Source of the DNA: Psammoneis japonica
Taxonomy: Eukaryota
Assembly: GCA_008632985.1 (NCBI GenBank)
Contig: QPGO01000003.1
Coordinates: 310,001 to 374,000, forward strand
Reading direction: 5' to 3'
Length of the DNA stretch: 64,000 nucleotides
In this document: piece after piece, positions 12,816 through 49,091 of the stretch
How the letters are laid out: every line of letters begins with the position of its first letter
Position numbering within the stretch: the first letter of the stretch is position 1
The notes under the pieces: model-generated
What the model was told of the DNA's origin: nothing
The model's input: only the letters and a program-made list of their open reading frames with translations
Database searches by the model: none
Made by a program: the position numbers and the translations under genes

Positions 12816-12818
12816 CAT

Positions 12819-27256: not shown

Positions 27257-27444
27257 ACGTCACATTCCAGACACGTCGGCCGGTCAATCGTGACGATGCA
27301 TACAGTGTAATTGGTCATGTGTCTTTTCCTGTGAAACATGCATGGGGTTTTACTTCAACTTCTCACTAAATCATTTTTGACGTCGGTCGTCATGAGGTGG
27401 CAAATAGTGCGTGGCATGAAAGCGCAGCGGCCCCTCTCACGTCA
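27257..27444 (+). promoter_or_regulatory. Three CCRE/CRE-like hexamers (ACGTCA 27257, TGACGT 27378, ACGTCA 27439) upstream of delta-CA
   Basis: Same hexamers as the CO2/cAMP-responsive elements of diatom carbonic anhydrase promoters, within 300 bp of the ATG. Function is not demonstrated. Confidence 0.5.
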
Positions 27445-27537
27445 CCTCTTCTCATCGCACACTTCCAACTTCCCTTCATTCAACCCTTGTCTCACAATTT
27501 TACAATTCGTCTGCAAGAACAACAACAGCAAAACACA

Positions 27538-29399: not shown

Positions 29400-31100
29400 T
29401 AAGCAACAGTTGTTCCCCAAGGATCCTCATCTAGGAATGTTTTGTGTTGTCATGAATGCAAGCCACAAGACATTTGAATTGAAGAATGATGCCACAGTGA
29501 AACCTTGTGTGAGCAACATTGGTGCAGCTGACTCAGCAACAAAGTTCATTTTCCCTTGTGCTCTGCCACACAAGAGGCCGCACTTTGAGTCAATGCATCG
29601 GTGCACCAGAGTCATGGTTGTTGCCCACACAGTGGAGTTTTTGTGTGCATGCAAGAGACAAGCTTTTGTGGCCATTTCATGAGCTTTCCTCTTGTGATGA
29701 AGCAAGAGCTTTTGTGCAGGAGGACATGTGCACAAAGTGCTTGTTTTTTGTCAATTCATCAGAGTGACAAAAGATCACCAGAAGCCAAAAAACACAAGCT
29801 CTAGTTGGCAGGTGATGGACAAAATTGTCTGGCATTGAAAACTGCACAAAAAATGGCGTGGTTTGTTTCATTTTACCTGTTGAAGCCGGTTCTTGCTGAG
29901 TGGCCCAGATGGCAAGCAGCTCAGCAGACAGCAAAGCACGTGTGATCCAGACAAAAGCCAGCAAACAGAACGATGCACAGTTGACAAAAAAGGGGTGCTG
30001 GACATGCTGCCTTGTCTGCTGTGCTGGGGAGCAGAGGCAGGAGTTGTGTGCAAGCCCCAGAGACAATGTGGTTGACATGTGCCTTTCACTCCAGACTTTT
30101 TGCACTGAACCAAGGTTGATTGGATTGGCCCAATGTTGTCCATTTGAGCCATCTTCTGCAAAGAACAAAAGCTTGGTTCCACATGCACTTGCCACAACAT
30201 GGGTCACATTGGGAGGAAGATCACATTCCACACTGACAAAGGTGCTCTTTTTGTGTGAGCTGAGCAACACACTTTTTTGGTCAACTCACTTTTTTGACCG
30301 GCGCTTTCTCTTGTGGTGCGCTCTGACAGTGTGACTCTGCAGCAAGATGGGGATGACTTCTAACTTGCTCCAGCTCCAGCCAGAGAATTCAAAATCATTT
30401 TGTCGCTGAACAAGAAACACTTGCCCCTGCACAGCCCTCCAAGCAATGGTGGCTTTGTGAGTGCTGAGCCCACGGTCTGTGGTTTGCCACTGCGCTGTCT
30501 GCCATGAATGCTGCTGGCATTGTGGTGGTGGATGCATGACAGCCAAGCAGTTGGATGGCAAAACTCAGGGAATCAATCTCTCAAACCAAAATCAAGAAAT
30601 TGCAGATCTGTGTTTTTTGGGTGAAGCATTGCCTCTGTGCGCACAACAACACATCGGCTCTTGAGCTCTGAAGAGCCGAAAAGCTCCGCCCAGCTTCGAC
30701 GGCAATGAAATGTGTGCTGTGATGACGTGTGTTGCTCACTCAGCTTTTCACTGCAGCGTTGTGCTCAAATCAACCTGGCAACCAACACAGAGGGCAGCTC
30801 AGGCTTTTGCAAAGCATCGCAAGGGGGCATTTTGTGGCCGATTGTCGCGCAGGTTCAAGACAAAATTTTGAGCAAAGTCGATCATCAGGTCAGGCAGCGA
30901 TGAACAGAAAGCTTTTCACTTCATTCTTTTGGTGAAACTTGTGCTGATGTGTGTTGATTTGGTTGCTGCACAACCCTGAAAGAGACCAGAATGTGCTGCA
31001 TCATGGTCAACCCGTCTCAACCATCACACATCTGTCGTTGGAGAGAGCTCCATTTCCCAGCGCTCAAAACTCACAGAAGTTTCGTAGAAAATCTTTTGTT
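29400..31100. repeat. TpA-depleted decayed repeat or pseudogene block
   Basis: Abrupt loss of TA relative to the flanks. A coding-like minus-strand remnant (29102-29395) continues into unmutated sequence. Confidence 0.6.
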
Positions 31101-31611
31101 TTGCTCAACAAGAAGAAACTTTATTTAGAATCACCCTCTGTTTTAAAACCTTTTTTTCCATTGTTGGAAAGCTCTTTTTCTCTGCTTTTAGCAATGTGTT
31201 TTTCGCAAAGAGTTGGAAAAACACATTACCTGGCCCACCCCGGGTTTTGTCATCCGCACTTACTGTTCAGCTGGATCTTGCAGTTGACATGATGTCTGAT
31301 GACTGATGACCCAATTCAAATGACTTAACGAATTCTATGCTGTCTACAGTACAGTACATACACGACGTTGTGCATATTATCTCTTCTGGCTAATTTTAAT
31401 GTCTGTTGACCTCATTGATTTGTCCACAACCTGTGTGATGACCATTGTCAACATTTATTGCTGAAGGAAGTACCAGACTCACGCTGAAATGGACAAAAGT
31501 CTTTTTTTTGGCTTGGTGATTGGGTCGGAAGTCATGACCGCTTGCTTCTCATCGTCGATCTCACATCTCACTATTCGCTATTTTCTCATTCTCTTCTTGC
31601 ACACAAAAACA

Positions 31612-33258
31612 ATGATCATGATCATTCGCATTTTACTGTTTACGGCGTTTTTCACTGCTATTAATGGCAGAAAAACAAAAGAACCTCCTCTTCCCAGTAA
31701 AAGGAAGAAACCCAGGGCCTTTCCCCTCACAAGGGTTAGAAGTTACAGTGGCACTGAAGGTGTTGGCGGCAAAGCCCACTCCCAACTCATCCGACTGGGA
31801 GAGATTGACTATCCAGATGACGGCTTTGGCCAAATGTCTGGAGCGAAAGTCAGAGAGGGACCGAACCCACGCGTCATCAGCAATGCTGTTGCCGCACAGA
31901 GTGGCTCCAGGCCGAATGCCCGCGGTCTTTCTTCGATGGTTTGGGCCTGGGGCCAATTTATCGATCACGACATTTCTCTCACAGAACCAAATGGCATATT
32001 CGGAAAGGCGCCAATTATTATCAGCGATGAAAGCGACATTCTTTACAACGGCCCACCGCATGGCGAAATTCCATTCAATCGTTCTGAATACGACCCACTC
32101 ACGGGCACTGCTACGGTGAACCCACGACAACAGATAAATCTAATTACTTCTCGCATAGACGGCTCAGGCGTTTATGGCTCCGACAAAATGCGAGCTGATT
32201 CTCTGCGTACATTCATGGATGGTATGATGAAAATGACCCTAGTAAGTAGCAAGGGGAACAAAGTGTTGGATCTACTTCCCCGTGATGGCAGCGGCATGTT
32301 TCTTGCAGGTGACATTCGAGCCAACGAACAAGTCGGCCTCATTTCCATGCACACCCTCTTTCTACGAGAGCACAACCGCCTCTGCCGCGAGATAAAACGT
32401 TGGTTCAGGAAACTCAACCCAAACGATGAGCAGATCTACCAGCTTGCACGCAAGATCGTCGGTGCCGAGATACAAGCTATAACCTACAACGAGTTTCTTC
32501 CAGCTCTACTTGGCCGAAGGATGGCTCTGCAGGAATACAAAGGATACAATGAAACCGTGGACCCTAGCATTGCTACAGAATTCTCGACGAGCGCCTTCCG
32601 ATTTGGTCACAGCATGCTTCCGCCAGAGTTGCCGCTGTATGACAAGAGCCGCCACATTGAAAACATCAGCTTGCGTGACGCTTTCTTTAGACCAGGCTTT
32701 CTAGTAGACAGACCGATCAATGTAGATTATCTTATTGGCGGGTTCGTGAGACAGTTCGCCCAAGAGATCGATAACGAGATCATTGACGATGTTCGTAATT
32801 TCTTGTTTGGACCACCGGGACGGGGCGGTTTTGACCTCGCGGCACTCAACATTCAAAGGGGACGTGACCACGGCATTCCAACTTACAACAAAGTCCGGGC
32901 GGCGTATAATCTTCCCCCCAAAACAGAATGGAGGCATGTCACCCGCAAAGAGGCTCTTCAGAATAAACTGGCCAGCGTGTACGTGGACCCCGACGAGATG
33001 GACGCCTGGGTCGGTGGACTTTGCGAAGACCATGTACGGGGGGCTAGCGTTGGCGAACTCGTCGGTGCAGCATTAAAGGACCAATTTACCCGTATTCGTG
33101 ACGGTGATCCTTTCTTTTACTTGATTGATGAGGACCTCCAAGACTTTCGAGTGAGGAGCCAAATTGTAGATGTTGATACTGTCAAGCTCGCGGACATTAT
33201 TCGACTCAACACCCAGATTGAGAACGTCAACAGAAACGTGTTCTTTGTCAAGGATTAG
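31612..33258 (+). CDS. Animal-type heme peroxidase (peroxidase-cyclooxygenase superfamily), secreted
   Basis: WGQFIDHD (distal His), GDIRANE, AFRFGHS (proximal His), NIQRGRDHG; signal peptide MIMIIRILLFTAFFTAING. Confidence 0.92.
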   Translation: MIMIIRILLFTAFFTAINGRKTKEPPLPSKRKKPRAFPLTRVRSYSGTEGVGGKAHSQLIRLGEIDYPDDGFGQMSGAKVREGPNPRVISNAVAAQSGSRPNARGLSSMVWAWGQFIDHDISLTEPNGIFGKAPIIISDESDILYNGPPHGEIPFNRSEYDPLTGTATVNPRQQINLITSRIDGSGVYGSDKMRADSLRTFMDGMMKMTLVSSKGNKVLDLLPRDGSGMFLAGDIRANEQVGLISMHTLFLREHNRLCREIKRWFRKLNPNDEQIYQLARKIVGAEIQAITYNEFLPALLGRRMALQEYKGYNETVDPSIATEFSTSAFRFGHSMLPPELPLYDKSRHIENISLRDAFFRPGFLVDRPINVDYLIGGFVRQFAQEIDNEIIDDVRNFLFGPPGRGGFDLAALNIQRGRDHGIPTYNKVRAAYNLPPKTEWRHVTRKEALQNKLASVYVDPDEMDAWVGGLCEDHVRGASVGELVGAALKDQFTRIRDGDPFFYLIDEDLQDFRVRSQIVDVDTVKLADIIRLNTQIENVNRNVFFVKD

Positions 33259-33781
33259 CTAGATACGATAGAAGTTGCGCTGATAGCACTTTTACATTTT
33301 AGATTAGCAATTTAGTTAACATCTTCTTGACTACTAGACAGTGTAAGCCCCTCTAAGGTATCTCTACTGCATGTTTCAACCAGGTTTAGGTGAAGTCCAC
33401 TGCGATCAGACAATCCTTGCCGACGAAAGAGCTCAACTTGCTTTGTAAATCGAAAGAATTGCACGTTTCAAGGTGAATGAGGGTTGCAATGACTTTCTTT
33501 ATCACCGGCTATTTCAAAAGTGCCGTTTTTGACTGTCAAAAAATGGTGACATTGCACATTGCTATGCAACAACGGCCAGACACGTCACATCAGATTCTGC
33601 AAGAGTACCGGTAGATACTATCGCATCGTCAAAAGTTCTAATGTCTCATCAGTTCATCAGCAGGCTTACTATTTACGTTTAGTGGTGCTTTTTTTTGCTC
33701 TGCCTTTAGTCGTACCGGCGGTTCAAGCTCCAATTCTTTACTGTTCGTATTCAATACGATTTACGCACTGTTTTGTTAGGT

Positions 33782-35188
33782 ATGGGTTGGACGGAAGCCC
33801 TGAAGAAACGCAAAAAATCGCCTACAACGACAGTAGATCAGGCGAGGAAATGCGTTTACAATCATCGTGCAGCTCAAGTCGCCGTGACGTGGATGCAGAG
33901 GCGCATCTCGGAGAAGCAGCAAGATTCGTCCAAGTTTTCTTGCTCTGCCCAAGAATTACAGCTGTGTGAATTTAAAAAATGCGTATTAGAACAAGAATTG
34001 GAGCTCCGCAAGACGGTCCTGAACACGACGGCTGATGAAAGAGTTGAAATTCTGTTTCAAGTGGTGGACGTGAACAAGAACGGCTATGTGAGCTGCAACG
34101 AACTGAGCCTGTGCCTATTGAAGATCGATGGCGAAAAGACTCAATCTCAAGCCTTCTCAGCAGCACAACTGTCTATTTCAGCCTTTGATTCTTCTCGTGA
34201 TGGACGATTGGATTGCGGTGAATTCAAAGTGTTTCTGACCAACATTGCGAGCCAGGTTGGATGCACCGTACAAGAGCTCGCACAGTTTCTAATCTTTCGA
34301 ATTGTGACTAGCGATGATGGTCCAACTGTAGTGGCAGAGACCATTACACATGGAGATTTGACAAGCTGGGTTCAGGGTCCATACGATGATGATAAGCTTG
34401 TTCAGGCTCGAATCTTGATTTTGTTCGAGGCGTTGGACTGGGACAAGAACGGCTTGGTTTACTTTCACGAGGTTGTAAAGTGCATGTATCGTGTAGCAAA
34501 AGACATGGACAAGCAATACCGACAAATTCTCTTTTAGATCCCAGGGCGAGAAGGGCAACAAGATAGGACGCTGGATCTGAGTCAGTTTGCGTTGTTTCTC
34601 TGTAATGTGGTTGCAGCCAGTCCGGCTCATGTAGGCATACACGAAGTTTGCAACTCCATTACGTTGCTTATCTGCGGCGGTGGTAATTGCTCATGTTCGA
34701 AAGTCAACTACGAAGATATTTTCGATCAGTATGGCCTCTATGATACAAGAGAAGAAACGACTGATCAACAGACCAAAGTTCCAATATCAACGCTGGATCA
34801 AGGCCGCATGACGCGACTGTTTGACTTGTGGGATCTCAATCACAATGGCTACATTGAATTCAACGAATTCTTTCTCGGGTTGCGCAAGTTCCACGAGACA
34901 AAGGACGTGGATACTACCTTTATGGAAACCGCCACAGCCATGTCACGGTTCGACGTTAATGAAAAGAACGGAAAGCTGGACAGAATTGAATTCTCTGCAG
35001 CTCTCGCTCAATTTGCGCAAGAGGCCGCAGGTGTTGATTTGTCAGGGTTAATTGACTACATGGTTATCCATAGCGCTCTCAAGGACAACAAAGAGGCCGA
35101 ACGCGACTATGTCAGAAGCTTGCGGACTCAAACGGACATACAAAACAACCTTGGCGCGTTGTGGCCATGGGGGAGGCGGCTAGAGTAA
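33782..35188 (+). CDS. Multi-EF-hand calcium-binding protein with one in-frame TAG (34535-34537)
   Basis: EF loops DVNKNGYVSCNE, DSSRDGRLDCGE, DWDKNGLVYFHE, DLNHNGYIEFNE and DVNEKNGKLDRIE. ORFs 33773-34537 and 34592-35188 are in the same frame. Confidence 0.75.
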
Positions 35189-35897
35189 CAACGCCAGGGA
35201 AATGCACTGAGTACAGAAAGTCCATGTAGGTACTGCGACGATGCGACCGTGTTCTCACCAGTATGAAAGCATTATAAGTTTCGTGTGACACCCGGTTCCT
35301 CTCGACATCTAGCCACTGCTCTCATTCTTTCAACGTACACAATGGCTACTTCTCGTTTCAGATGCAATGTTGCAGCTCATTCATCATTTCCCTTCTTGGT
35401 ACTTTTCATCTCCTCGAGACAGCCGCGTTCTTGACTCTGTCCTTAAGCGGCTTCAAACAGAAACACAACATCGGCGACTTCTCCCCCTGGTGTAGTCCCA
35501 TCGTCGTGATCTTTGTTGATTTCTTCGTCTTGGTTGTGCCCTCTCTAGCTAATGGCTAGTTCCTGATGTAGTCACATGTGTCGTGGATTTTGGCCACTCA
35601 AGTTGTTCCGGCGGCACAAAACAGTGAGAAAATACGGAGAGAGCTCGATTCATGACGGATGAACCAATGGGTTGCTGCACACTGCGGAAACTGAGTCGAT
35701 AGAAAGTTCCATAGCAGGGTAATCATAGGTACATACTCGGAGTAAGTGACTTGTCCAATCACGGGATGAAAGAAAGAACGGCCGCAAGAAAGTACCTACT
35801 CGTAGTCGCTTGAATGTAATCCAACATACCGTAGGTTTTAGTGCTGATCTATTCTTCATCCCAACAGAATGTACCAATTCCTATACATGCTTGTACA

Positions 35898-36131
35898 AGT
35901 CACGACTCAACGTCATTCTGGTCGCATCTCACGACTACAACCCAGACTCAGATTTTCTCTTCGAAATAATTGGCTCATCACAAAATTGATTCAAACAGAA
36001 GCAACGACATTCGTCATAATTTTTAGACAACGACTTTGAACAAGCGTCTGTTTACCTCTGTTGCTGTTCACATTGCTGCCAACCTCCGAGGTCTTGTCCA
36101 TCCTACCCAGCTGTGGGACTGCATCTCGACT
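35898..36131 (+). repeat. 5' LTR (AGTC...GACT)
   Basis: 227/234 identical to 42905-43138. Confidence 0.97.
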
Positions 36132-36293
36132 GGTCACAGAGACCAATTTGCGCGTTGACGAGAGCTCCTGACCGAGTCATCGTCACGGACACTTTCGGTT
36201 TTTGATTTTGAAGCAAACCCGGGAAATGGCTGAGTCTCTCTCGCTTCTCTCGTCTTCACTCTAACAAGAACCTCTCATGCTGCACTCTTTGTC

Positions 36294-39200
36294 ATGGCTG
36301 CCATCGATCCGGCTGTTCTGGCGAAGGCATTTGCCGACGCAATGGCCGCCAACGCCGCAGCGACCGCTCCTCCGGCTCCAACCAAGCCGTTACGTGGTGG
36401 AATTCACCCAACCCACGGGGTTTACATTGGTGGTTCCAAACTCAACAACAACTGCGAACAATCCAATGACAGAACCTGCCGACTCGCCTCTCAGCGCCGT
36501 CATCCCAAGGCTCTCGACTCGATGGAACGATCTCTCCGCGATCAACAAGCTTCCGCAATGACTTCCAAGTTCAACGGTCGACTTGAGATTTTGGACGGTC
36601 CCATCAACGAGCTTGACAAGGACCATTTCGTCAAGACCATTTGAGATCTGGCAGAAGCCCACGGTCAGCAGATGTTCCACCATGTCAAGAACAGCGACGA
36701 CAAGGTTCAACATGTCTTCGACCATCTTCACGAGTTTACTGTGACCGATCTCGTGAACGAGTGCACGGTTGGGAAAGCAGCTGCCAATGACACCAAGTGC
36801 GATGAGATCGAGCTCGACGATGTCGGGCTCTCTCAACTTCTCGTTCACTCAAGAATCACTGGTGCCTTTCGCGAGAAAATCGAGACCAAGTTCAACCATC
36901 TCTCGGACTGCCAAGACTGCCCTGGATCTGTTCTGTTCATGATGGCTCTCGATGCTTGCAATGCCAGCGCTCTGACGGACATTGAGACGGCCAAGAAGCA
37001 GCTAGAAGACCTCAGTTTGGTTGGCTGTCCCGGCGAGGATTGCACGGATTTTGCTGCCGAAGCTCTTCGCATCGTAAAAATTGTGCAGACCGACCACGCG
37101 CTTCTGGCGAACACAAGCTCCAAGCCACTCCACAAGATCTCCTCTGCGTCCTCTGAATGCTTCAATCGGCGAGTCTACAACAAGCTCGACGACGTCAAGG
37201 CTGTGGAACGCAAGTGCCGCCTCAAGAATCCTGCTGACATCGTGTCCGACAGCGATTGCAAAACGCTCGGACCGGTCGGCATCATTGCATGGATTCAGGA
37301 GCAACACAACGAACTCGTGAAGGACGGGGAGTGGCCTGCGTTGGTCGCCAAGCTACCCGAGAGCAATCTTTCGACTGCGGATGACCCTGGGAAGACGAAG
37401 CACTGTTGTGGTTGCGGTCTCGAGGGGTGCACCAAGAAGACGTGCCCGAAGTGCAACGCCAAACCGCCGCGCGACGATCCTCCTCCCAATCCGCCGCCTG
37501 CAGACGACCCTTCCAAGAAGAAGAGGCGACCCATCGCTGCCTGGCGTGCTAAATTTGACGGAGAAACGAAGAAGGACAAGAATGGCAAGGAATGGAAGTG
37601 GTGTGCCACGTGCACGGCGAAGGGTGCCGACAAACCTGGAATCTGCCAGAAGCACTCTACCGCGGAACACACCGACGACCGCAGGCGCCCTCCCAAGGAG
37701 ACCCCAGCCGGGAATTTGTCTTCTGTTGCTGATCCGGACAGTGGCGTGCCCATGGGTCCGCCCGCTCAGACTGCCAAGGAACCAGAGGGAGACGAATCCG
37801 ACCCCAACGAGTTGGTTTTCACGGGAATGTGGTGCGCGGCTACGGATGCCGTCACCGACCCGGAGTTCTGTTCCGCCCCTGTTGCTGCTGCATTCATTGT
37901 TCCTCCGGCTTCTTCGGCGAGCGGGAGAGCAATGCAGTCATTGGCACTGAGGTGGTTTGCAACGAAACGAGCCCACCTGCACTCACCTCAGTCGTGGATC
38001 CAGTCGTGTCTCCCATCGTGGTTGAGACTGTCACTCCCGAAGACGCCGATGACTTCTACGAATGCTCCGACGCTTTCTCCACCTTTGAAAACGAACCACC
38101 GGCTATTGAGTTGTTTCTGGCCTCGAAGCTGTGCTCCATCAAGCATCCAGATGAGTTCTTTGACGCTCCCGCACATTTGATGGACATGCTGTCAGACGAC
38201 ACAAAGTTAGATCTCATCCTTGAACATGACGTACACTTTGAAGACGCATGCTGCGACTTGCCTCCGTGTGTCACATGTCGTGGCTTCGATTTCTACGATC
38301 CAGAGGTCCTGGATGCGGATGATTGTCACGAGGACGTCGAAGACGAGCCCACTTTGCGTCGCTCACTTTTGGGACGAGTCAAGCTGTTCACATTCTGGCT
38401 CGCCGCCATGTTTTGGGAAATGGTGCTGCATCTTTGCTTTGCTCCGATCCCTTGCATCCCTCGAGCTCTACGCCGCCAGCGCAAACTCCCAACTTTGCAC
38501 GGGTTTCCAGCCTCCTGGATGGTCCTGTCCGTTGCAGTGATGGTGTGGTCAGCAGTTTACGCCGGTCAACAGCCCGAGCATCCATTCTCGAACGTGCCAA
38601 GTCGTTTTTCGACCGCCAGCTCTCAAGTCTGCCACATTGTGGAAGAGCCAGATGACCGGATAGTGTTGGATGCGGGGTCACTGTTCGAATGTCACAGGAT
38701 CAAAGGCACGCAAGCACTCACCGAGTTTGTCGCGCGCCATCCATCACACGCACTGAGCACTCGTCTCAAGGCCTGCTGGGAGAGCCTGGAAGTCGCTGAA
38801 CGGTCGGATGCGACAGACGAATCAGCCTTCTTTGACACCTGTGAGGAACTGGAACCTCTCGACGACCAGAAGTGTTTCTTTGACGCTCTTGAGGACTTCA
38901 GCCCGGATTTCTTCCAGTTTGACGAGCTCTGTCTGCCGAATCATGTCGTGGACACTGCCCATTTTCAAGATCCTGTGGAACCATTGGAGGAAGCAAGTGT
39001 TAGACCAGTCGTCTGCAATGCCTCCACCATCCACCTGCTCACCGGACAATCACAAGCCGACCTCCTTGCATCCGATCCGCAGGCACTCATCGGTCTGTCA
39101 GACGAGGCTCTCACGGTCATCATGGATGCTGGTGCCACGTTAGCTGTTGCCCCCGACAAAGATGATTTTACGGGGCCTGTGACTGTTCCCAAGAAACCCT

Positions 39201-42200
39201 TGCAGATCAATGGGATTGCCAACGGTCTTACCATCCAGGGCACCGGTCCGGTTGCGTGGGTGTTCACAACGCTGAGTGGGGCTCCCATCCAACTGAACAC
39301 CATGGCATGCTACGTCCCTGGAGCCCGTCAGCGCCTGCCATCGCCTCAACGCCTCTTCAACGAAGAAAAGGGGGTACGTGGGAAGTGCGAGGGCGATGAA
39401 ACCACTTTCCGTTTACATGTTGACGGGACAGGCAAGTTGGTCGTGCCACATCATCCATCAAGCCACTTGCCCATTGCGTCAATGACCAAGGGCATCTCTG
39501 CCGCTCCTCAAGTGAACCTGCAGATCCTTGGCGAGGAGAATCAAAACCTCACGGCAGGCCAAAAGCTTCTTCTCGAAATGCACGCCCGTTTTGGCCATTT
39601 GAACTTTGGTCGCGTCCAAGCACTTCTCCGCGCAGTTCCGTTCCTGTCGAACCGTTTCAAGTCCGCAGCGAAGTGTGACCACCCAAGATGCGAGGCATGC
39701 GAATGTGCTAAAGGTCACAGACGCTCCCTTGGATCTGCTCACAAGTCGACAGTCCCTGAACGCGACGGGGCCCTTCGAGCTGACCATCTTTGACCGGGTC
39801 AGGCTGTCAGCGTTGATCATTTTGAGTCGCGCCTTTTAGGCCGCACCTTTGACTCACATGGCAAAGCCACGTCCAAGCAATTCAAGGGCGGTTGTGTCTT
39901 TGTCGACCACGCCTCTGGCCATGTCCAGGTCGAGCACCAACTGGGTTTCTCCGCTGTTGAGACGACACGAGCGAAGCAAGCGTTTGAGAAACATGCTTTG
40001 GACCACGGGGTCATCGTCCAAGAATTTCTTACCGACAGTGGCGCTTTCAAGGCCAACGCTTTTGTGCAACACACACGAGACCATGAACAACGTCTCCGTT
40101 TCTGTGGAACCAACGCCCATCATCAGAACGGCGTCGCAGAGCGGGGCATCCGAAGCATCTCCAACATGGTGAGAGCGATGTTGCTTCATGCATCAATCCA
40201 CTGGAAGGGGGGAATTGACAGCTCCCCATGGCCCATGGCAGTTTCTTGTGCCACGCACATCTACAATGTCACCCCAAATTCCAAAGGACATTGCCCAGCG
40301 GACATTTTCACCGGTTCGACAGTGCCAAGACATCGGTTGCGCGACATTCACACATGGGGATGTCCAGCGTACGCACTTGATCCGACCCTCGCTTCCGGGA
40401 AGAAACTCCCGCGTTGGGAGCCTCGCACTCGTCGCGCTTTGTTCGTGGGACTCAGCACCATCCATTCCAGTGAGGTTCCTTTGGTCCTCAATCTTCAAAC
40501 TGGAAGTGTTGCTCCTCAGTGTCATGTGGTCTTTGATGATCTCTTCACTGCCACACCATCAATCGAGAGGGAGACGGATCCACCTGATCACTGGGAACAC
40601 TTGTGCCTCAACCAATCGATGTGCATCCCTCTGGAGAAGGATCAAGCAGTTCATTTGCACGATGAGTGGCTTGCCCCTCCAGAGCGTCAACGTAAAGAGC
40701 GAGAACTGGCCAGAGCAACACGCATTCGCGGCCATTTTGAGCCTGCTCCATCGATTGCTGTGCCGGATTCACCCACTTCTCGCGACGACGTTGCCGATCG
40801 AGTCGCACCTGCGACTCAGCAGCCAACGCCACCAGTCCCATCTACGACTCAAACTCCTGCAGACTCTATGGACTCTGTGCCAATTCAGCCACCTGAACCT
40901 CAAGTCAGCAACGAACTTCCGCCACCCGAAGTGCCGATGGAACCAACAGCTCCTCCCCCAGTCGAGACACCTCCTGTGATGAATCCAGAGGGAGTGCCAG
41001 GGCTGCGATGGTCTTCACGGTCAACCAAGGGACAGCTCAACTCTGCCAAGTTTGTAGATGAGGTGCACTTCAGCTCCGTCAAGGAAATGCCACTGCTGAT
41101 CAGACACGAGGCTCAGCCAGCGTATCTGGCGACTCTCGAGATGGATTTGGACAGTGGCACCATCAACATCGGCGATCCACGAGCCTGCGCAGCTAGCAAG
41201 AAAACCAAGGACCCTGACATGCCTTCGTCACACAATGCTCTGAAAGGTCCGGACGCCGACGAATGGATTGAGGCGATGAAAATTGAAGTCAACGCACTCA
41301 CACATCGTCGAGCCTGGAAAGCAGTCGAGCATCAGCCGCGTGTGAATGCACTTCCAGGCACATGGGCACTGAAGCTCAAGAGACTCCCGGATGGAACCCC
41401 TCTCAAGCATGAGGCCCGATGCTGCGTCCGCGGTGATTTACAGAAAGAAGGAGTCGACCACTTCGAAACCTGCACGCCGGTTGTGCAATGGTCCAGCACC
41501 CGACTCATGCTCACTGCGGCATTAAAGGAGGGATGGACTGCACGTCAGGTGGACTGTGCCACAGCCTTTTGCCAAGCTGACATCGCCGAGGAAGTTCACA
41601 TGACACCGCTGAAGGGATTTGCGCCAAGGTCGGGACTCAACATGGTTCTCAAACTTTTGAAAGGACTGTGCGGCCTAAAACAGTCTCCCAAGGGCTTCTG
41701 CGAGAAGTTGCGAGCTGGTTTAACCGAGCGCGGATGGGTGCCTTCAGCCATAGATCCCTGTTTGTATTTCAAAGAGGGCATGATGTGTGTGGTCCACGTC
41801 GACGACACCGTTTTTGCTGGAGCTTCAGCTGAAGCTCTAGAAGCCGAAATTCGCAAGTTAGAAGTCTCCGACGACAAACATCGCCACGCATTTGAACTTA
41901 GAGACAAAGGAGAAGTCGGCAACTTTCTCGGTGTCAAGATCGAAAAGCTCTCCAAGGGTCGATTTCTACTCACTCAACCCGGTCTAATTGACAAGGTCCT
42001 GCGTGCCGCACAGATGCAGGATTGCAATGGAGCATCTGCTCCAGCTCTACCTGTGGCCATTGGTGCCGACACGGACGGCCTGCCTTTTGATGAACCCTGC
42101 GATTGTCGCTCAGTTGTTGGAATGTTGATGCACTTGGCAGCGAACAGCCGGCCAGACATTGCACATGCCACACATCAAGCAGCTCGATTCTCGTTTGCAC

Positions 42201-42883
42201 CCCGAGCGTCCCACGCTGCTGCAGTGAAGCGGATGCTCCGACACCTCAAAGCAACTGCTGCTGAAGGTCTCATTCTCAAGCCTGCGCAAGATCATCGAGT
42301 TGATTGTTACGTCGATTCTGACTTCGCGGGGTTGTTTGGTGTGGAAGATGGTCAAGACCCAGTTTCTGTCAAGTCCAGGACTGGACACCTTGTCCACTGC
42401 GCCGGCTGCCCGCTTGTCTGGGTGTCCAAGCTGCAGACTCTTGCAGCATTGTCGACTGTGGAAGCGGAACATGTCGCACTTTCTCAAGCTGTGCGCGATC
42501 TCATCCCTGTTCGTGAAGTTCTCAAGGAGCTCAACCACCACGTGTTCGGAAAGTCTGACCGCCAAAACCCCATCAAGACTCACTCCAAGGCTTTTGAGCT
42601 CACAACCCAAGGCACCGATGACTCGCCTGTAGCGCAGAATGTCCCACCTGCATCCGTTGTGTGCGAAGATAACTCCGCGTGCCTCAAGTTCGCACGCATG
42701 CCCAAGTTGTCTCCGAGAACCAAACACATCGGCATCCCGCACCACTGGTTTAGGACTAAAGTCGAACAATTGGAGATCGACATCCAACCTGTCAGCACTC
42801 TAGAGCAACTAGCCGATCAGTTCACGAAGGGACTACGGACCGATGCGTTCCGTACGGCTAGAAAGGCTCTTATGGGCTGGTAA
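36294..42883 (+). pseudogene. Copia gag-pol polyprotein with 2 TGA stops, a frameshift near 37900 and widespread Tyr>Cys/His changes
   Basis: Zn knuckle CCGCGLEGCTKKTC, protease MDAGAT, integrase HARFGH..CEAC / VSVDHFES / TDSGAF / QNGVAERGIR, RT LCGLKQSP and HVDD, RNase H YVDSDFAG / EAEH / EDNSAC / LADQFTKGL. Confidence 0.95.
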
Positions 42884-42904
42884 GCTCTCTCGGTTGAGAG
42901 GGAG

Positions 42905-43138
42905 AGTCACGACTCAACGTCATTCTGGTCGCATCTCACGACTACAACCCAGACTCAGATTTTCTCTTCGAAATAATTAGCTCATCACAAAATTGATTCA
43001 AACAGAAGCAACGACATTCGTCATAATTTTTAGACAACGACTTTGAACAAGCGTCTGTTTACCTCTGTTGCTATTCATATTGCTACCAACCTCCGAGGTC
43101 TTATCCATCCTACCCAGCTGTAGGACTGTATCTCGACT
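42905..43138 (+). repeat. 3' LTR (AGTC...GACT)
   Basis: Follows the polypurine tract and is followed by the TSD GTACA. Confidence 0.97.
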
Positions 43139-43189
43139 GTACAGATTCAACATGAATTCTTATACACTCTAGAGCTACTGTTCATCCCA

Positions 43190-44617
43190 TTATTTTAATT
43201 CAGATACATGCTTGTACAAATTCTTGACAAACACGGGTGCATCCTCATCCAAGACCAACTGCAATTCCTCCAACAAGGCCTTTGTTGGTTTCTTGTCGAC
43301 AACGTGTTGCAAAATAAATTCAATTAAAGTGGCTTCCTCTTCTCCCATGTACTCGGCAATTTGCGCCGCCACAAATGCCTTGACAGTGCCAATGTTGGAT
43401 TCCGAAATGCCCCCAAACAACACGCCCTCTGCCAATGGATCTGAAACAACAACTGGAGTAGTAGTAGCAGTAGTGAGATCTAATTTTGGCTTTTTGCGCG
43501 GTGGGCCTTCGGGTTGTTGTGGCGTTGGCGGCGGGCTGTTCATCGGCAACATCCTTGGCTTGTTCGGCTACTTCTGGATTGTCCTTGGTCATCCAGGCTG
43601 GTAGATTGGAAACACCACGTCGACCCGATTCCTTGGGCACAGTGCCGTCATTTGATGGAGCAACGGTTGTTGTTTCCGGCACTGGTGGAGGCGGCGGTGG
43701 CGGAGGCGCGTTGCGTTCTTGCTCGACTCTGGCTCGTGCGTCCTCCAAGGCCTTGTCTAATTTCTCTTTTACCAAAAGCACGCGTTGTTTCTTTTGAGAG
43801 GATTGAATGTTTTCCAAGTTTTTGCGAAAAAGTGCCACGGCTGCCAAAACAGCGGGTGCATTGAGGGGATCCTCGTCGGGGTCATAGGCACCTCCAGCAG
43901 CGGCCGCCACTTTGGTGGCGTCCAATTTCAAATCGGACGCTTCAGCAGAAGGAGCAGAGGAGGAATCCACGGTGGTTGCTACAATCCCATTGGCCGAGAT
44001 CAAACCCGGCTCGAGTTTTTCTACCAAGATTTGTAGAGTTTCATCATCAATCAGCGGTGGAGGTAGCGATACGGTGGGGTCGGTCGGAACCAAGTGTGCT
44101 CGGAGATTTGAATCAGAATTGCTTTTCGAGAGCTTTTGCAGCGCACACGTTAGTTTGAGAGCTCCATCGGGACGAGCCATGATGACTAGAGCCAATCGTG
44201 GTGATTTGTTCTTGTTGTGGTTTTCCTTATCCTTACTGTCTGCCTTTTCTGTATCGGTGCCGTTTGTTTTTTCTTTTTCTTTCTCGGCAGAAATTACAGT
44301 AACATCCTGAACAAGTCCGCACGGTTGAATCCAGTCTCGCAGCTTTTGGGTGTCCAAATGCAGCGGGATATTGATCAATAAGACCGTATTGGATGGTCGC
44401 GGTTTGCTCATAATGACGACGGGAGGTCCCATGAGTGGAGCACCGATCGGTGGCGGTGGTACTATCATGCTAGGCGGCGGAACTCCCACGGGCGGAATAC
44501 CAGCTGCTGCGCCAGGTGGAGGAATCATGGGCATGGCCACACCACTGGTGGTGGAGGAGGAGGCAGGCCTATTGGCACTGCTCCCGGTGGAGGCGGCGGT
44601 GGAGGTGGAGCCGACAT
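43190..44617 (-). CDS. Proline-rich RRM-like plus C-terminal PWI-domain RNA-processing protein, with two apparent 1-nt frameshifts
   Basis: MSAPPPPPPPP start (44617), RRM-like NTVLLINIP..., GRRGVSNLPAWMT and a PWI-like VKAFVAAQIAEYMGEEEATLIEFIL...VLDEDAPVFVKNLY. Frame changes occur at about 44545 and 43515. Confidence 0.75.
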
Positions 44618-47469
44618 GGTCAACAAGCACAGAAAATGGGCACTGTGCGGGGCGCACTCTCTCGAAAATCGGAAATCGGTTTTGTGGCCATCGGGTCTGT
44701 CCGTCCCCCATCCCATCCGACCTTAAAAACCCAAGGAGGCACCGCAGAAAAAAAAGCTCCAGCAACAGGCCAAACTCTGTCACTTTGCGAGGCACAATGG
44801 AGTGCATTGACTGTGGCTACAACAGTGTAAGGCGCTCAGGGAATGGATGCATGTGAAGAGCCAGCCAAGCACCACTTGTCGGATGTCCTCCCCAGAAAGA
44901 GCTGCGCACAGCTCATCTTCAACAAGGAGGTCAATTTTGGCAAAAAATGGTGGTGTGACTTCAACCTGACAACAGGGCACAGGACAATGAGTGGCATTTT
45001 TGAAGCACAAAGTGTGCAGCTCCTTGTGGCAGTGCAACAGCCCTGACAAGGGTTTTGATGACACACACACACACACACCCCACATGCATTTGGGAGGGGT
45101 GTGCTTCGAGGTGGGGGGTTAAATGAGAAGGCAAAGCGAGGGAATTTCTGGGTTGTCATCTGCCCCATGCATTCTTCCTCAAACAGAAACCACCCCCACA
45201 CAACTCAAAGCTGGGTGCAGCAGCAGGTGGTTGTGTTGCAATGGGTGGAAGCACTGCAAGGCAGCAGCAGGCTTGCAACATGCGTTGTCATGTGCGTTGT
45301 GTGCATGCACATCTGCACACAAAACAAATTTGTGCTCCAATCGCACGTCAATCGTGGGTTCGTACGAAGGACAGATCAATCACACAGAGTTGATCGGATG
45401 TCGAGAATCGCAAATGCGACTGTGCGATGATGTTGACATCTTGTGTGTCGGCGCCAATCGCATCCGGACAATCTGTTGTCACGATCGTATTCTCCGAAAG
45501 TCCTTTTGTCTGCAGGAGCAGTGCAAAAGGTTTAGGCTGTTGAGAACCCATTCGGAGAAATCCAAAATGATCGCGTAGAAACAACTCTCACAATTTTCAC
45601 TTTTTGAACTTAGTTCTGCTTTCGTTTGCACTCGTTCTTCGAGCACAGTGCAGGCTGCACGTGGGTTTTGAGGACACAACAATCGGAAAAGGCAGGGTGG
45701 TGAGAAAGCAGTGCCTTGAAGGACGCCTGGTGACAGCAACAACATGGAAACAAAAGAATTTTGCCTTGAGAAAAAAGCTGTTCCATTTGTCATGCAGCAC
45801 TGCAGAAAACATGCTGCACACCCATGTGCAAGAGCTGCCCTGGCACATGGCACAAGTGACAAAACAATGCATCACCAACAACTGCTCTTCACCCTTTTTT
45901 GTTCAACCAGCCAAGCAGATTTTCTCAAAGTGCACAAAACCTGTGCTGTCATCTGTTGTTGTTTTTTGTGTGTTTGACTGTGCAGACTGCCGCCTGGTCA
46001 CAGAAATGGCACACTGGGCTGCACTCATGCGCACATGAGGGGTTTGGGTTGAAAGCACTTGTGTGACATTTGTGCTGCACAGGCAGATGACACTTGTGCA
46101 CAGCAACATGCACTGCAGCTGCACCCACTCCAATGGGTGAGCTGTCAGTGCTCACAATGTGTGGCAATGACTCACTTGATGCTTGTGCGTGGCACTGCTT
46201 CCATCAGCTCCAGCTGATGACTGGATCTTCTTCTGCTGGGGGCAACAAGAAAAGAGGAGGAGCTGCAGCTTGGCAAGGGGGGTCTCCCTTGGCAATGGCA
46301 CAAGGGGCACTGATCACCAAGTGGCACAGGCTGACATCTTGTTTTAACAAGCTGTGCTTGGCACATCTCCTCTGGAAAATGCAGCAGCTCCTTTAGCCTC
46401 AAAAGGTTGGCAGTCTGTTGGAGCTCATGTCCTCAAGCCATCTTAGCCAAAAGAGCAAGTTCTGCACTCCTGTTGCTGCACCCACTTCAACAGGTGAGTT
46501 GGCCACATCCATGGTGTGCTGTGGCAATGAGCAGGTGCACCATGTCCTGCAAACACGTGAGGGTGTGGTCAGTTGGATGATGCTCATGATGAGGCAATGA
46601 GGAGGCATGAAAATCTTGTTGCATTTCAAATTCTTGCTCACAAAAGGGTTGTTCTGAATGACAGACACAGCCAACAATGAGCAGACATGACAAGCAATCA
46701 CATGGGTGGGAGGAGATTGATGAGATCTGAAAAGCTGATGGGCAATGAAATGTTGGGAAAGTCAAGCTCAAAGCCCATTCCACCACATTGATTCAACAGA
46801 TCAACTCACCTTTGTCAGAGAGAATGTGACAATGTCTTGTTGACCTGTGTGGATCTTGAGATGCATGTTGCTGGATGGTGTGTTCAGCCATTGTGTGGCC
46901 AATGGCTGCCAATGAGTGCTCAAAGCAAAGAGCCAATTTTGTAAGATCAGAGCTTTTGACTGAGCCAAACATGGCTCTGGTGTCCAGTCCACCCAAAACC
47001 TCAATTGAGGCAAGAACCTTGCAAAATGTGTGGAACTTGACAGACTGAATGGCAATGCACCAGCTCAATTTTTTTAAGGTGGCAAAAAACCTTTTTGCAA
47101 GTTTTTGGGCACTTCCATTGTTGAACTCTTCACACTTGATTGAAGAACCAGATTTCACATGAGCAGTCTCTTTGATGAGTGCAGAGTCACTGCCTCCATG
47201 CAGAACCTGCAACCCTCAATTGAGGAAATTTTTTGGCAGACTGGATGCTGGCAGGGGCAGAAAGAGCTTCTTCAGTGCAAGGTGAAGAAATCCCAAAAAG
47301 GTCATTGCTGTCAGGGCCAGCCTTTGGTGGCATCATGGTGATGACAAGCCAGCTCAAAAAAAGCCAAACTCAATTTAAAGTGCCATTGCACCTTTGCTCA
47401 GCAACGCTGGTGCCAACCAACCCACACTTCCAGTGCACCCCACCAGGGGTGCAGCAGCAGAAGTGCATG

Positions 47470-48000
47470 CAATCAGCTGGCTTTGGATTCTCCAGATGGA
47501 GGCACCCAACAGAAGCAGCTGGTGACAGTGCATGTGCCATGAAGTGCCAAGCGTTTTGCTTCCTTCAAGCTTTCCTTCAGTCTGGGCTGGACCATTGCAA
47601 TCCAGCTCTGCACTCTTGTTGTGCAGAACTCTTGATGCTCTTCTGCCAAGTCCAACAAAACCCCATGGTCTTTTGCCACATGCTCTTTTGTCATTTGTTG
47701 CATGCCACAGTCAATTGGCCTTGACCTGTTGTCTTTGGGAAGATTGAGTCAACATCATGTCTGTGCACCAAACGGTTGTGCTCCTCCCAGAGCTCCCGCC
47801 ATTGTCTCCATGTGTGAGAGCCAAATTTTGAGCTGTCCAATCTGGAGTTTGCTTGCTCTCTTCCTGATGCCAGCAGCTGGCAGAGGAGACCTGAATCACA
47901 AAGATGGTCTGATCAAAGAATGTTCAAGAGGAGAGAATGGCATCCATTGAACACCTGAATTCCATGCAGGCCTCAACTGAAATCCACAACAATGAAGTGT
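47470..48000 (-). mobile_element. 3' remnant of a non-LTR (LINE-like) retrotransposon ORF
   Basis: The minus strand reads TWRQWRELWEEHNRLVHRHD (W..W.LW..RN..VH pattern), followed by LDLAEEHQEFCTTRVQSWIAMVQP..ESLKEAK..GTCTVTSCF, resembling LINE ORF2 C-termini. Confidence 0.55.
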
Positions 48001-49091
48001 CTGTGTGCAGCACAATTGGAGTGCGCAAAGGCAGGATGAAAGTCACTCAACCACATCTTTCAGCAGTGCAGCTGCAGACAATGTGGTGATTTGCATCACC
48101 CCTGCTTCTCCTCAAACTGATGTCAGTGCTTGAACAACAGTGCAGCTCTGCAGTTGCATGAGCCACCTTTTCTCTGGCTGTGGCAGTGAACGCAGTTTGT
48201 GCGTGAAAGCTTCTGAGCAAACAAAGGCAAGCAGCTGCCTTGGCTGCAAGCAAATCTGCTGCAGTGTGATCAAAAAGTGGTGAGGAGGAAAAGATGCTGT
48301 CAGCAGTTGGCGAGAATTGCAGTGGCCGATGGCTGCCAGTGGTCTTCAGATGATGGCATGTGCAGCTCAGGTGCATGGCAAGCTCCACTTTCAAGGAGCA
48401 CGCAGCACTCTTGTTGGGTGTTTTCCTGGTCATTTGGCTGCATTCAGTCAACTTTCAGGGGCTCATCGTGCTTAAAAAAAAATGGCTGCTGAAGCCATCT
48501 GATGCATGAAAACAATCTGCTCATGTCTGAATGACAAAGGCACGCTGCTGAGTTGATCACCAATGGACAATTTTTGACTGAGCTTGGCTGCCACAACAAG
48601 TTTGCAACTGCCTCTGAGAAATGATCTGCAAAAAATTTGTCACATGGGATGATGCCTGGACTTCCAAGACAATGTGAGCAAACCCTCTTTTTGCAGGTGG
48701 AGCGCACTTTCATTGACTTCCTTTGAGCACATCATTTCATGTGCACGAAGTTTGGGCTCACACAGACCATTGAAATTTTTTAAGTCTTAAGATTGGCTGT
48801 CAGATGGTTGTCACAACTTGCATCTTTTATTGCACCACGGTGTTGCAGCAATGTGAAAAGCTCATGCACTGTGTCCCAAGAAGTGAGCTTGCAGAACGGC
48901 ATCAGTTGAGCTGTGAGCGGTTGAGCGCATGGCTGAATTCAGTCATTCTGTCTGGCTGAGCGGGTCACGATCGAGAACACCGGCACGAATGCACCGCACT
49001 GCAGACCATGGCCCACGGCAGCAAAAACTGCGGCGTTGGGTGTCGGGCGCTGCGTTTTCTGGGGTCGCATCTCGCACCTCCTTGCCTCGCC

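What the first reader, a model, noticed from the sequence alone, without database searches (positions are those of the whole stretch)
39120..42760. Conserved Pol tyrosines converted to Cys/His fix the direction as TA>TG/CA and disable the enzymes
Seen: only 5 Tyr in the 961-aa IN-RT-RH ORF. Motifs read HVDD (CAC at 41795; canonical YVDD), LCGLKQ (LYGLKQ), DHFETC (DYFETY), KHEARC (KYKARY; TATAAG>CATGAG), DCRSVVGMLMHL (YRS..LMYL), DIAHA (DIAYA), LRHLK (LRYLK), EAEHVA (EAEYVA), VCEDN (VYEDN) and HHWFR (YHWFR). The protease reads DAGA (GATGCT, from GAT ACT, DTGA). Tyr codons (TAY) can only become TGY (Cys) or CAY (His) by this change. The ancestral state is therefore TA, which excludes classical RIP and CpG deamination as the cause. 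Every Tyr codon is a target, so the process inactivates proteins without introducing stops.
Basis: partly seen in the sequence, partly recalled or inferred. Interest (0 to 1): 0.88.

Follow-up and report, generated by a model that had tools for sequence, protein, structure and literature searches.

The report
TA-erasing hypermutation of a diatom retrotransposon
A recently inserted copia-type jumping gene in a diatom-like alga has had most of its TA steps rewritten to TG or CA, which turned conserved tyrosines into cysteine or histidine; this is the mark of a DNA-editing process so far shown in only one unrelated alga.

Summary
The region is the pol gene of a complete Ty1/copia LTR retrotransposon (35898-43138, 5-bp target duplication). 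The 961-aa ORF has 5 Tyr. Of 21 columns where at least 70% of 39 relatives have Tyr, the window has 4 Y, 7 C, 7 H, 2 F and 1 W. Other residues apart from Ile and Thr are kept at 72-100%. Inferred A>G and T>C changes lie almost only at TA. All 7 differences between the two LTRs are TA versus TG/CA, so at least those arose on the integrated DNA. TA observed/expected in pol is 0.21, below all 80 environmental relatives (0.33-0.90). About 60-65% of the window is even poorer in TA.

The same signature, TpA>TpG/CpA on integrated foreign DNA, was shown in mutation-accumulation lines of Bigelowiella natans in a 2026 preprint. The kind is therefore known, but I found no report in diatoms or for LTR retrotransposons.

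It is also unresolved whether the interior changes are private to this copy or inherited from an already mutated progenitor, because the family has many copies. The enzyme is unknown; a DNA adenine deaminase is the leading guess.

The parts
35893..35897 (+). Target-site duplication GTACA (left copy)
   Evidence: Read directly. It is identical to 43139-43143.
35898..36131 (+). 5' LTR (AGTC...GACT). It has 6 TA left. Seven sites read TG or CA where the 3' LTR has TA: 35972, 36066, 36071, 36078, 36096, 36115, 36122.
   Evidence: Self-BLAST, alignment, classified differences, TA list.
36060..42750 (.). TA-poor domain. It starts in the last third of the 5' LTR and ends about 150 bp before the 3' LTR. 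Counts are 0-4 TA per 250 bp in all but one bin (7 at 41750-41999), against 9.5-17 expected.
   Evidence: Per kb, TA observed/expected is 0.12-0.30 and CpG is 0.82-1.02.
36672..38180 (+). Putative gag ORF (502 aa; 0.2% Tyr over the stop-to-stop frame). No Pfam match.
37733..42883 (+). The pol frame (PR-IN-RT-RH), one frame, with a TAA stop at 42881.
   Evidence: tblastn of five full-length relatives gives a single segment each, the longest 38369-42880. Frames.
39125..39136 (+). Protease active-site motif, reading DAGA (relatives: D-S/T-G-A). GAT-GCT fits GAT-ACT with T|A changed to T|G.
39791..39793 (+). The only in-frame stop in pol (TGA). Other copies in run X1 read CGA.
   Evidence: (place 39791, T>C in 6 contigs, all the depth there).
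41312..42049 (+). Reverse transcriptase domain (Pfam RVT_2, E 2.3e-32), with HVDD at 41795-41806.
42894..42904 (+). Polypurine tract GAGAGGGAGAG directly before the 3' LTR.
   Evidence: Read directly.
42905..43138 (+). 3' LTR. It keeps 13 TA and shows no TA>TG/CA difference in its disfavour.
43139..43143 (+). Target-site duplication GTACA (right copy)

Best explanation
The finding lies in the pol gene of a complete, recently inserted Ty1/copia LTR retrotransposon in a stramenopile genome, most likely that of a pennate diatom. The interior of the element has lost roughly two thirds to four fifths of its TpA dinucleotides. The losses are A:T>G:C transitions on either strand: TA>TG when the + strand A changes, TA>CA when the - strand A changes. 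Every Tyr codon (TAY) contains a TA, so conserved tyrosines became Cys (TGY) or His (CAY). Ile, Thr, Met and Lys codons that follow a codon ending in T became Val, Ala, Val and Glu. The process works on DNA in a bounded domain (about 36060-42750), spares the flanking host genes, and acted at least partly after integration. It is of the same kind as the TpA hypermutation of integrated viral DNA measured in Bigelowiella natans. Shown here: the dinucleotide, the direction, the use of both strands, the sharp domain edges and the post-insertion timing of 7 LTR events. Inferred: the chemistry, most likely enzymatic deamination of adenine to inosine at 5'-TA-3' by an ADAT/TadA-like deaminase, read as G at the next replication. 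Also inferred: the targeting (chromatin mark, small RNA or homology) and the inactivation of PR and RT.
For: Anatomy of the element: LTRs, 5-bp target duplication, polypurine tract and RVT_2 domain. Tyr columns: 4 Y, 7 C, 7 H, 2 F, 1 W of 21. The window keeps 4 of 19 Tyr against 60-100% in each of 40 relatives. Inferred base changes: 30.5 of 34.5 A>G/T>C changes are at TA; binomial p = 1e-8 and 2e-7 against a 25% neighbour expectation. Both strands are used: 7 Cys versus 7 His; 5 TG versus 2 CA in the LTR; 19.5 versus 11 overall, p = 0.2. All 7 of 7 LTR differences are TA in the 3' LTR versus TG/CA in the 5' LTR. No other difference occurs in 235 bp. The matching target duplication shows one insertion, not a recombinant. 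TA observed/expected in pol is 0.21, below all 80 of 80 metagenome relatives (0.33-0.90). TA loss is at least as strong in Tyr codons (ratio 0.15) as in the other two codon phases (0.37, 0.21), so selection did not filter it. Host-like ORFs in the window have TA observed/expected 0.31-0.65 and 1.4-4.2% Tyr. Precedent: in B. natans mutation-accumulation lines, 230 of 231 mutations in two integrated viral regions are A>G or T>C, and all of these GC-biased mutations fall on TpA (preprint, Results read).
Against: The run that holds this sequence (X1, probably the source sample) shows the element as a large family. 2845 contigs were laid, with summed depth 2800-7900 against about 50-58 in the flanks. 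Only 108 places have the window's G or C against A or T in at least 10% of the depth, while my estimate of lost TA sites is about 100-215. Many TA losses may therefore be shared by other copies and inherited from an already mutated progenitor, not made in this copy. Only 40 of the 281 variable places were printed, and none of the Tyr sites is among them, so this could not be settled. The domain does not match the element's ends or the expected transcript, and nothing here explains its edges. No enzyme could be sought because no whole genome is held. Loss of enzyme activity was not tested.
Confidence: 0.8

Rival explanations
1. Most interior changes were inherited, not made in place. A progenitor copy was hypermutated or edited as RNA/cDNA during retrotransposition. 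Its TA-poor descendants were then amplified, in trans by proteins from intact elements or by segmental duplication. Only the 7 LTR changes arose in this copy.
For: Run X1 shows a family with very high summed depth. Single contigs there carry about 100-540 depth at places where the flank depth is about 55, so many copies share local sequence. 677 of 2845 laid contigs are at least 99% like the window. Fewer variable G>A/C>T places (108) than my upper estimates of lost TA sites.
Against: The 5' LTR lost 7 of 13 TA after insertion, a rate close to the interior's. The simplest reading is therefore one in-place domain. The domain edge at about 42750 lies inside the internal region and not at an RNA landmark. 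Both strands are hit equally, which editing of plus-strand RNA cannot give. Tyr-codon TAs are not spared, so the mutated pol was not under selection. In B. natans the process acts on integrated DNA.
Confidence: 0.25
2. Sequencing or assembly artefact. Modified bases in silenced repeats (for example a modified A or T at TA) are systematically miscalled as G or C in a long-read assembly.
For: The signal is confined to repeats, where modification would be expected. At all 40 best-supported variable places the window's own letter is missing or nearly missing from the X1 contigs.
Against: If the true sequence had TA, nearly all X1 contigs would read TA at every such site and these would fill the best-supported list. 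Only 2 single sites and 3 doublets of the 40 do; 20 are CpG-type. 677 contigs are at least 99% like the window. Mixed-strand miscalls should also give CG outcomes, but no Arg (CGY) occurs at the 14 converted Tyr columns. The same signature is a real mutation process in B. natans Illumina data. The library type of X1 is not on record, so this is not a full exclusion.
Confidence: 0.04
3. A naturally Tyr-poor, TA-avoiding but functional copia lineage, for example one selected to escape a TA-directed nuclease or the hypermutation itself.
For: The family is abundant. The frame stays open apart from one stop.
Against: At 10 of the 13 Tyr>Cys/His columns none of 40 relatives has Cys or His. Motif residues invariant in 39 of 39 relatives are replaced. 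Nonsynonymous TA sites are lost as much as the mostly synonymous ones. The open frame is expected anyway, because TA>TG/CA cannot make stops and erases TAA/TAG. The LTRs differ only at TA.
Confidence: 0.03
4. RIP-like C>T mutation at CpA/TpG. In this reading the TA-rich 3' LTR and flanks are the mutated state and the interior is the original.
For: A two-sequence LTR comparison alone cannot give direction.
Against: Tyr is ancestral at columns where up to 39 of 39 or 40 of 40 relatives have Tyr. The interior TA observed/expected is below all 80 relatives, and the 3' LTR and flanks are at normal levels, not in excess.
Confidence: 0.01

Closest known systems
TpA hypermutation of integrated NCLDV and virophage DNA in Bigelowiella natans (Mettrop et al., bioRxiv 10.64898/2026.01.13.699255, 2026). 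I read the abstract, Results and Discussion and ran a term search; I did not see the supplements.
   Same: Only A>G and T>C transitions, only at TpA, giving TpG or CpA according to strand. The process is confined to integrated foreign DNA. TpA-depleted, CpA+TpG-enriched clusters occur in the genome, and TpA-depleted CDS are enriched in reverse transcriptase and DDE domains. The enzyme is unknown; an ADAT2 homologue is proposed.
   Different: The host there is a chlorarachniophyte (Rhizaria), here a diatom-like stramenopile. The measured targets there are single-copy viral inserts, and the words 'retrotransposon', 'LTR' and 'diatom' do not occur in the text. The depletion here is far deeper: 0.03-0.21 against 0.45 for their NCLDV region. 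No mutation-accumulation data exist here.
Repeat-induced point mutation (RIP) of ascomycete fungi
   Same: Dinucleotide-specific transitions on both strands of integrated repeated DNA, inactivating transposons, with sharp regional limits.
   Different: The polarity is opposite: RIP turns CpA/TpG into TpA, and this process turns TpA into CpA/TpG. RIP makes stop codons, and this process cannot. RIP depends on duplication and a cytosine-methyltransferase-like protein before meiosis (recalled); neither could be tested here.
APOBEC3 editing of retroviral and retrotransposon cDNA in vertebrates (e.g. PMC4866542, seen in a search listing only)
   Same: Deaminase-type hypermutation that leaves inactivated retroelement copies in the genome.
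   Different: That editing is C>U on minus-strand cDNA, seen as strand-asymmetric G>A, before integration. Here the changes are A:T>G:C on both strands, and at least 7 events came after integration.
ADAR hyper-editing of double-stranded RNA, and ADAT/TadA-type adenosine deaminases
   Same: A>I (read as G) with a preference for U/T before the edited A. The preprint's Discussion states this for ADAR. For TadA and fungal ADAT2/3 it is recalled.
   Different: Those are RNA enzymes, and heritable changes on both DNA strands and between two LTRs are not expected from them. Whether the host has such a gene could not be tested.
Methyl-CpG deamination decay of silenced repeats
   Same: It also ends in TG/CA excess. 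It is present in this window: older blocks have CpG observed/expected 0.05-0.6, and about 20 CpG-type differences separate this copy from the others.
   Different: It cannot remove TA or turn TAY into TGY/CAY. In the focal element CpG is still near normal (0.82-1.02) while TA is at 0.12-0.30.

Membership tests
Ty1/copia LTR retrotransposon | Two direct long terminal repeats with short inverted ends | tested here: met
   35898-36131 and 42905-43138, 97% identical, ends AGTC...GACT.
Ty1/copia LTR retrotransposon | 5-bp target-site duplication | tested here: met
   GTACA on both sides.
Ty1/copia LTR retrotransposon | Domain order PR-IN-RT-RH and an RVT_2-type reverse transcriptase | tested here: met
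   RVT_2 E 2.3e-32. gag_pre-integrase (E 4e-4, below Pfam's cut-off) and SH3_retrovirus (E 2e-5, below cut-off) lie upstream of RT. The region is collinear with full-length relatives.
Ty1/copia LTR retrotransposon | Polypurine tract before the 3' LTR and a primer-binding site after the 5' LTR | tested here: inconclusive
   The polypurine tract GAGAGGGAGAG is present. The sequence after the 5' LTR was read but not matched to any tRNA.
TpA-targeted A:T>G:C hypermutation (B. natans type) | Changes are A>G and T>C transitions | tested here: met
   34.5 of 40 inferred transitions are A>G or T>C. 7 of 7 LTR differences are of this kind.
TpA-targeted A:T>G:C hypermutation (B. natans type) | Changes fall on TpA only (TpA>TpG or CpA) | tested here: met
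   30.5 of 34.5 are in TA context. 7 of 7 LTR differences are at TA. TA observed/expected 0.12-0.30.
TpA-targeted A:T>G:C hypermutation (B. natans type) | Confined to integrated foreign or mobile DNA, with host genes spared | tested here: met
   Domain about 36060-42750. Flanks and host-like ORFs are at 0.31-0.65.
TpA-targeted A:T>G:C hypermutation (B. natans type) | Acts on the integrated DNA copy | tested here: inconclusive
   Met for the 7 LTR sites. For the interior it cannot be separated from inheritance.
TpA-targeted A:T>G:C hypermutation (B. natans type) | De novo rate about 1000 times background in mutation-accumulation lines | not testable with these tools
   There are no lines or time series. 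Only one DNA run holds the sequence.
TpA-targeted A:T>G:C hypermutation (B. natans type) | An ADAT2-like candidate deaminase in the host | not testable with these tools
   No whole genome is held.
Fungal RIP | C:G>T:A at CpA/TpG, giving TpA excess and stop codons | tested here: not met
   The polarity is opposite. No stop can arise.
APOBEC-type cDNA editing | Strand-asymmetric G>A from C>U on minus-strand cDNA, before integration | tested here: not met
   No G>A excess: 3 G>A at CpG among 67. Both strands are hit and the LTRs differ.
ADAR-type RNA hyper-editing | A>G on the RNA strand only, with both LTRs identical afterwards | tested here: not met
   T>C on the + strand is as common as A>G at the Tyr codons (7 His, 7 Cys). 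The LTRs differ at 7 TA sites.

The most novel reading that the evidence does not exclude
Diatoms carry a dedicated genome defence that mirrors RIP. A DNA adenine deaminase is guided to integrated mobile DNA and erases TpA. It works fast enough to strip most TA from a new insertion before one ordinary substitution appears in its LTRs. It acts in sharply bounded domains and eventually leaves tens of kilobases almost free of TA. Together with Bigelowiella this would make it an old system of the stramenopile-alveolate-rhizarian (SAR) group. The abundance of this TA-poor family would then hint at an arms race in which mutated or TA-poor lineages keep spreading.
Probability: 0.45. Interest if true: 0.85.

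Novelty: new member of a known kind. Interest (0 to 1): 0.7.

Why it matters
If confirmed genome-wide, this takes a hypermutation process just discovered in one rhizarian alga into diatoms, a major and genetically tractable group. It also extends the process to LTR retrotransposons, the main diatom repeats. The signal here is much deeper than in the published case, which makes the enzyme hunt practical: compare deaminase repertoires of diatoms with and without TA-free repeats, then knock out candidates. There is a practical consequence for annotation too. TA-free DNA has no TAA or TAG stops, so it shows long false ORFs in all six frames. The true TE proteins become Tyr-poor and Cys/His-rich, so they fall below Pfam thresholds. 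A natural sequence-specific DNA adenine deaminase would also interest base-editing research.

Tried and rejected
- Whole-genome search: no genome is held for this window. Copy-by-copy comparison and a search for deaminase genes were therefore impossible.
- Other copies of the family:
  - The search for related loci with the single protein found none.
  - The representative library has no relative above 55% identity, and the search for homologous proteins none above 60%.
  - Read laying printed only 40 of 281 variable places.
- Expression: no RNA holder is listed.
- Rejected test: I first took adjacent TG-versus-CA doublets between the tandem duplicates (6 in pair X, 19 in pair Y) as proof of a TA ancestor. 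An ancestral CG also gives TG on one strand and CA on the other, so I dropped it. The Tyr-codon test carries the polarity.
- Strand-coordinated runs of outcomes along pol: 20 runs against 15.2 expected (sd 2.5), so no clustering.
- Content of the TA-free blocks:
  - 105 ORFs were scanned against Pfam. Only PhyH (17878-18696) and PLDc_2 (48960-49802, below cut-off) matched.
  - ORF 12822-14075(-) has no homologue.
It needs an altered sequence, and the column-by-column comparison answers the same question.
- Earlier findings of this scan: nothing on this genome or on this sequence.
- Literature: nine searches (and a term search inside the preprint) found no report of TpA hypermutation in diatoms or in LTR retrotransposons. 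Subscription journals are not covered, and the preprint's supplements were not seen.
Full report
WHAT IS THERE

The flagged stretch is the pol gene of a complete Ty1/copia LTR retrotransposon.
- A self-comparison of the window finds two 235-bp direct repeats, 35898-36132 and 42905-43139, 97% identical.
- Read directly, the LTRs are AGTC...GACT (35898-36131 and 42905-43138). They are flanked on both sides by the same five bases, GTACA (35893-35897 and 43139-43143).
- A polypurine tract, GAGAGGGAGAG, lies just before the 3' LTR.
- Pfam finds RVT_2 (E 2.3e-32). Below its cut-offs it also finds a gag-pre-integrase and a retroviral SH3-like domain upstream of RT.
- tblastn of five full-length relatives aligns each in a single segment, the longest covering 38369-42880. 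Pol is therefore one frame (37733-42880).
Host-like ORFs in the window encode a delta carbonic anhydrase, an animal-type haem peroxidase, a GHMP kinase and others.
- The best named relatives of the carbonic anhydrase are from Licmophora paradoxa (69-72% identity) and Seminavis robusta (61%). The named copia relative is from Fragilaria crotonensis. I read this as a stramenopile, most likely a pennate diatom. It is not Bigelowiella.

- Against 39 relatives of about 50-55% identity there are 21 columns where at least 70% have Tyr. The window reads Y at 4, C at 7, H at 7, F at 2 and W at 1.
- Ile is kept in 7 of 20 columns (8 became Val, 2 Met, 1 Thr). Thr is kept in 13 of 24 (6 became Ala). Every other residue is kept in 72-100% of its columns, including 26 of 26 Asp and 8 of 8 Cys.
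- With 40 longer relatives the window keeps 4 of 19 Tyr. Each relative, left out in turn, keeps 60-100%. Fisher p = 4e-9 against the other conserved residues.
- At 10 of the 13 Tyr>Cys/His columns in that alignment no relative has Cys or His.
- All 120 listed relatives have 1.6-4.5% Tyr.

DIRECTION AND CONTEXT

For each difference at a conserved column I asked which single base change leads from a codon of the consensus residue to the window's codon. Of 87 differences, 67 have such a path:

| Inferred change | Count |
|---|---|
| A>G after T | 19.5 |
| T>C before A | 11 |
| A>G in any other context | 4 |
| T>C in any other context | 0 |
| CpG transitions | 5.5 |
| Transversions, mostly conservative | 27 |

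Further points:
- The window's codons at Tyr columns are TGY or CAY, never CGY, so the ancestor was TA and not CG.
- Cys and His are equally common (7 and 7), so both DNA strands are hit.
- TA observed/expected is 0.12-0.30 per kb across the element, while CpG stays at 0.82-1.02.
- In pol the TA value is 0.21, below all 80 environmental relatives fetched as DNA (0.33-0.90).
- By codon phase, TA density relative to 21 open-frame relatives is 0.15 in Tyr position and 0.37 and 0.21 in the other two phases. The always-nonsynonymous sites were not protected by selection.
None of 1976 possible TA>TG/CA changes in pairs of sense codons makes a stop, while TAA and TAG are erased or become TGA.

TIMING AND PLACE

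The two LTRs differ at 7 positions. All 7 are TA in the 3' LTR against TG (5) or CA (2) in the 5' LTR, and there is no other difference (p = 2e-7).
- The matching target duplication shows a single insertion, so the LTRs were identical on arrival. These 7 changes therefore happened on the integrated DNA.
- The 5' LTR has lost 7 of 13 TA and the 3' LTR none.
- The TA-poor domain runs from about 36060 (one outlier at 35972) to about 42750. From there TA density returns abruptly to normal, 150 bp before the 3' LTR.
- These edges are neither the element's ends nor those of the expected transcript, and the flanks are untouched.
- There is no strand-coordinated clustering of outcomes.

WHAT WEAKENS THE SIMPLE STORY

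One public run holds the sequence (X1, probably the source sample).
- Its contigs confirm both junctions without a mismatch.
- They show the element as a large family: 2845 contigs laid, with summed depth 2800-7900 against about 50-58 in the flanks.
- There are 281 variable places, of which 240 are transitions.
- Of the 40 places printed, 20 are TG/CA in the window against CG in essentially all other contigs. These are CpG decay in this copy's line, and they include the stop at 39791, which the other copies read as CGA.
- Only 2 single places and 3 doublets of the 40 are of the TA type.
- This argues against an assembly artefact. If the true sequence had TA, such places would fill the list.
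- It also means that many TA losses may be shared among copies and so predate this insertion.
- My estimate of lost TA sites (about 100-215) against 108 variable G>A/C>T places does not settle the question. The Tyr sites were not among the printed places.
- I therefore hold the in-place reading for the interior as likely, not shown.

SURROUNDINGS

The element is the mildest case in the window.
- Roughly 60-65% of the 64 kb lies in TA-poor blocks.
- In 30.5 kb of the strongest blocks only 113 TA remain. There TA observed/expected is 0.03-0.10, CA/TG is 1.6-1.9, and CpG has also decayed to 0.05-0.6.
- Their content is unidentified.
- TA loss thus seems to come first and fast, with CpG decay following slowly.

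COMPARISON WITH WHAT IS KNOWN

Nine literature searches found one match: the 2026 preprint on Bigelowiella natans. I read its abstract, Results and Discussion; I did not see its supplements.
- In mutation-accumulation lines, 230 of 231 mutations in two integrated viral regions were A>G or T>C, and all of these fell on TpA.
- Those regions mutated about 1000 times faster than the rest of the genome.
- TpA-depleted CDS were enriched in reverse transcriptase and DDE domains.
- An ADAT2 homologue was proposed as the enzyme.
- The text does not mention diatoms, LTRs or retrotransposons.

The present case is the same kind of process in another supergroup lineage, on another class of target, and far deeper. 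It is the mirror image of fungal RIP. It differs from APOBEC and ADAR editing in base or substrate, in strand symmetry and in its post-integration timing.

VERDICT

- pol carries one in-frame stop of CpG origin;
- enzyme inactivation is inferred, not shown;
- whether the interior changes are private to this copy or inherited remains open.

It is a new member of a very recently described kind. The enzyme and the targeting rule are unknown in both systems.

Noticed in passing
window 1-2300, 6100-21100, 21700-25200, 25950-26750, 29450-31000, 44650-52650, 59600-60800, 63200-64000: These blocks are almost free of TA (observed/expected 0.03-0.10) with CA/TG at 1.6-1.9. Unlike the focal element they also have decayed CpG (0.05-0.6). 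Together with the element they make up about 60-65% of the window. Their origin is unidentified.
   Followed up: partly
window 17878-18696 (+) and 48960-49802 (+): The only Pfam signals inside the TA-free blocks are a PhyH-type dioxygenase fragment (E 1e-6) and a PLD-like domain (E 2e-5, below cut-off). They may be remains of genes carried by unknown mobile or foreign DNA.
   Followed up: no
window 25319-25879: A roughly 558-bp insert bounded by 25-nt inverted arms (84% complementary) splits a tandem duplicate. It has normal TA (about 0.6) and 40% GC inside a TA-free block. It looks like a small terminal-inverted-repeat element, either younger than the hypermutation of that block or not a target.
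   Followed up: partly
window 23382-24978 versus 24971-27129: A tandem duplicate, 93-94% identical. Its differences are mostly adjacent TG-versus-CA doublets (25), TA-versus-TG/CA sites (15) and CG-versus-TG/CA sites (about 24). Both TA loss and CpG decay therefore continued after the duplication. The far end of the second copy (26886-27071) still keeps TA.
   Followed up: partly
TA-poor blocks, whole window: Because TAA and TAG are gone, long overlapping ORFs open in several frames on both strands. They have 0% Tyr and 5-10% Cys. Gene callers would over-predict here.
   Followed up: yes
surviving TA sites, 36133-42750 and the strong blocks: Surviving TA is rarely followed by T (7-9% against 25-29% in host-like DNA and relatives). 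In the strongest blocks it is often TAAA (27% against 7-9%). In the element TACG is frequent (16% against 4-6%). This hints at a wider sequence preference of the process.
   Followed up: partly
window 39791, 41009, 40170, 41474, 41610 and others: About 20 places where this copy reads TG or CA and essentially all other contigs of run X1 read CG. These are CpG C>T changes in this copy's line, one of which made the only stop in pol.
   Followed up: partly
window 35700-43400 in run X1: The element belongs to a large family. Summed contig depth is 50-140 times the flank depth, and contigs range from below 90% to above 99% identity. One contig of X2 shows the same LTR end joined to a different flank, which is another insertion site.
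   Followed up: partly
window 27370-28623, 31465-33255, 3068-4093, 4826-5875, 54613-55965, 33710-35185: Host-like genes with normal TA. They encode a delta carbonic anhydrase, an animal-type haem peroxidase, a GHMP kinase, an MscS-type channel domain, a PLP-dependent decarboxylase and EF-hand proteins.
   Followed up: no
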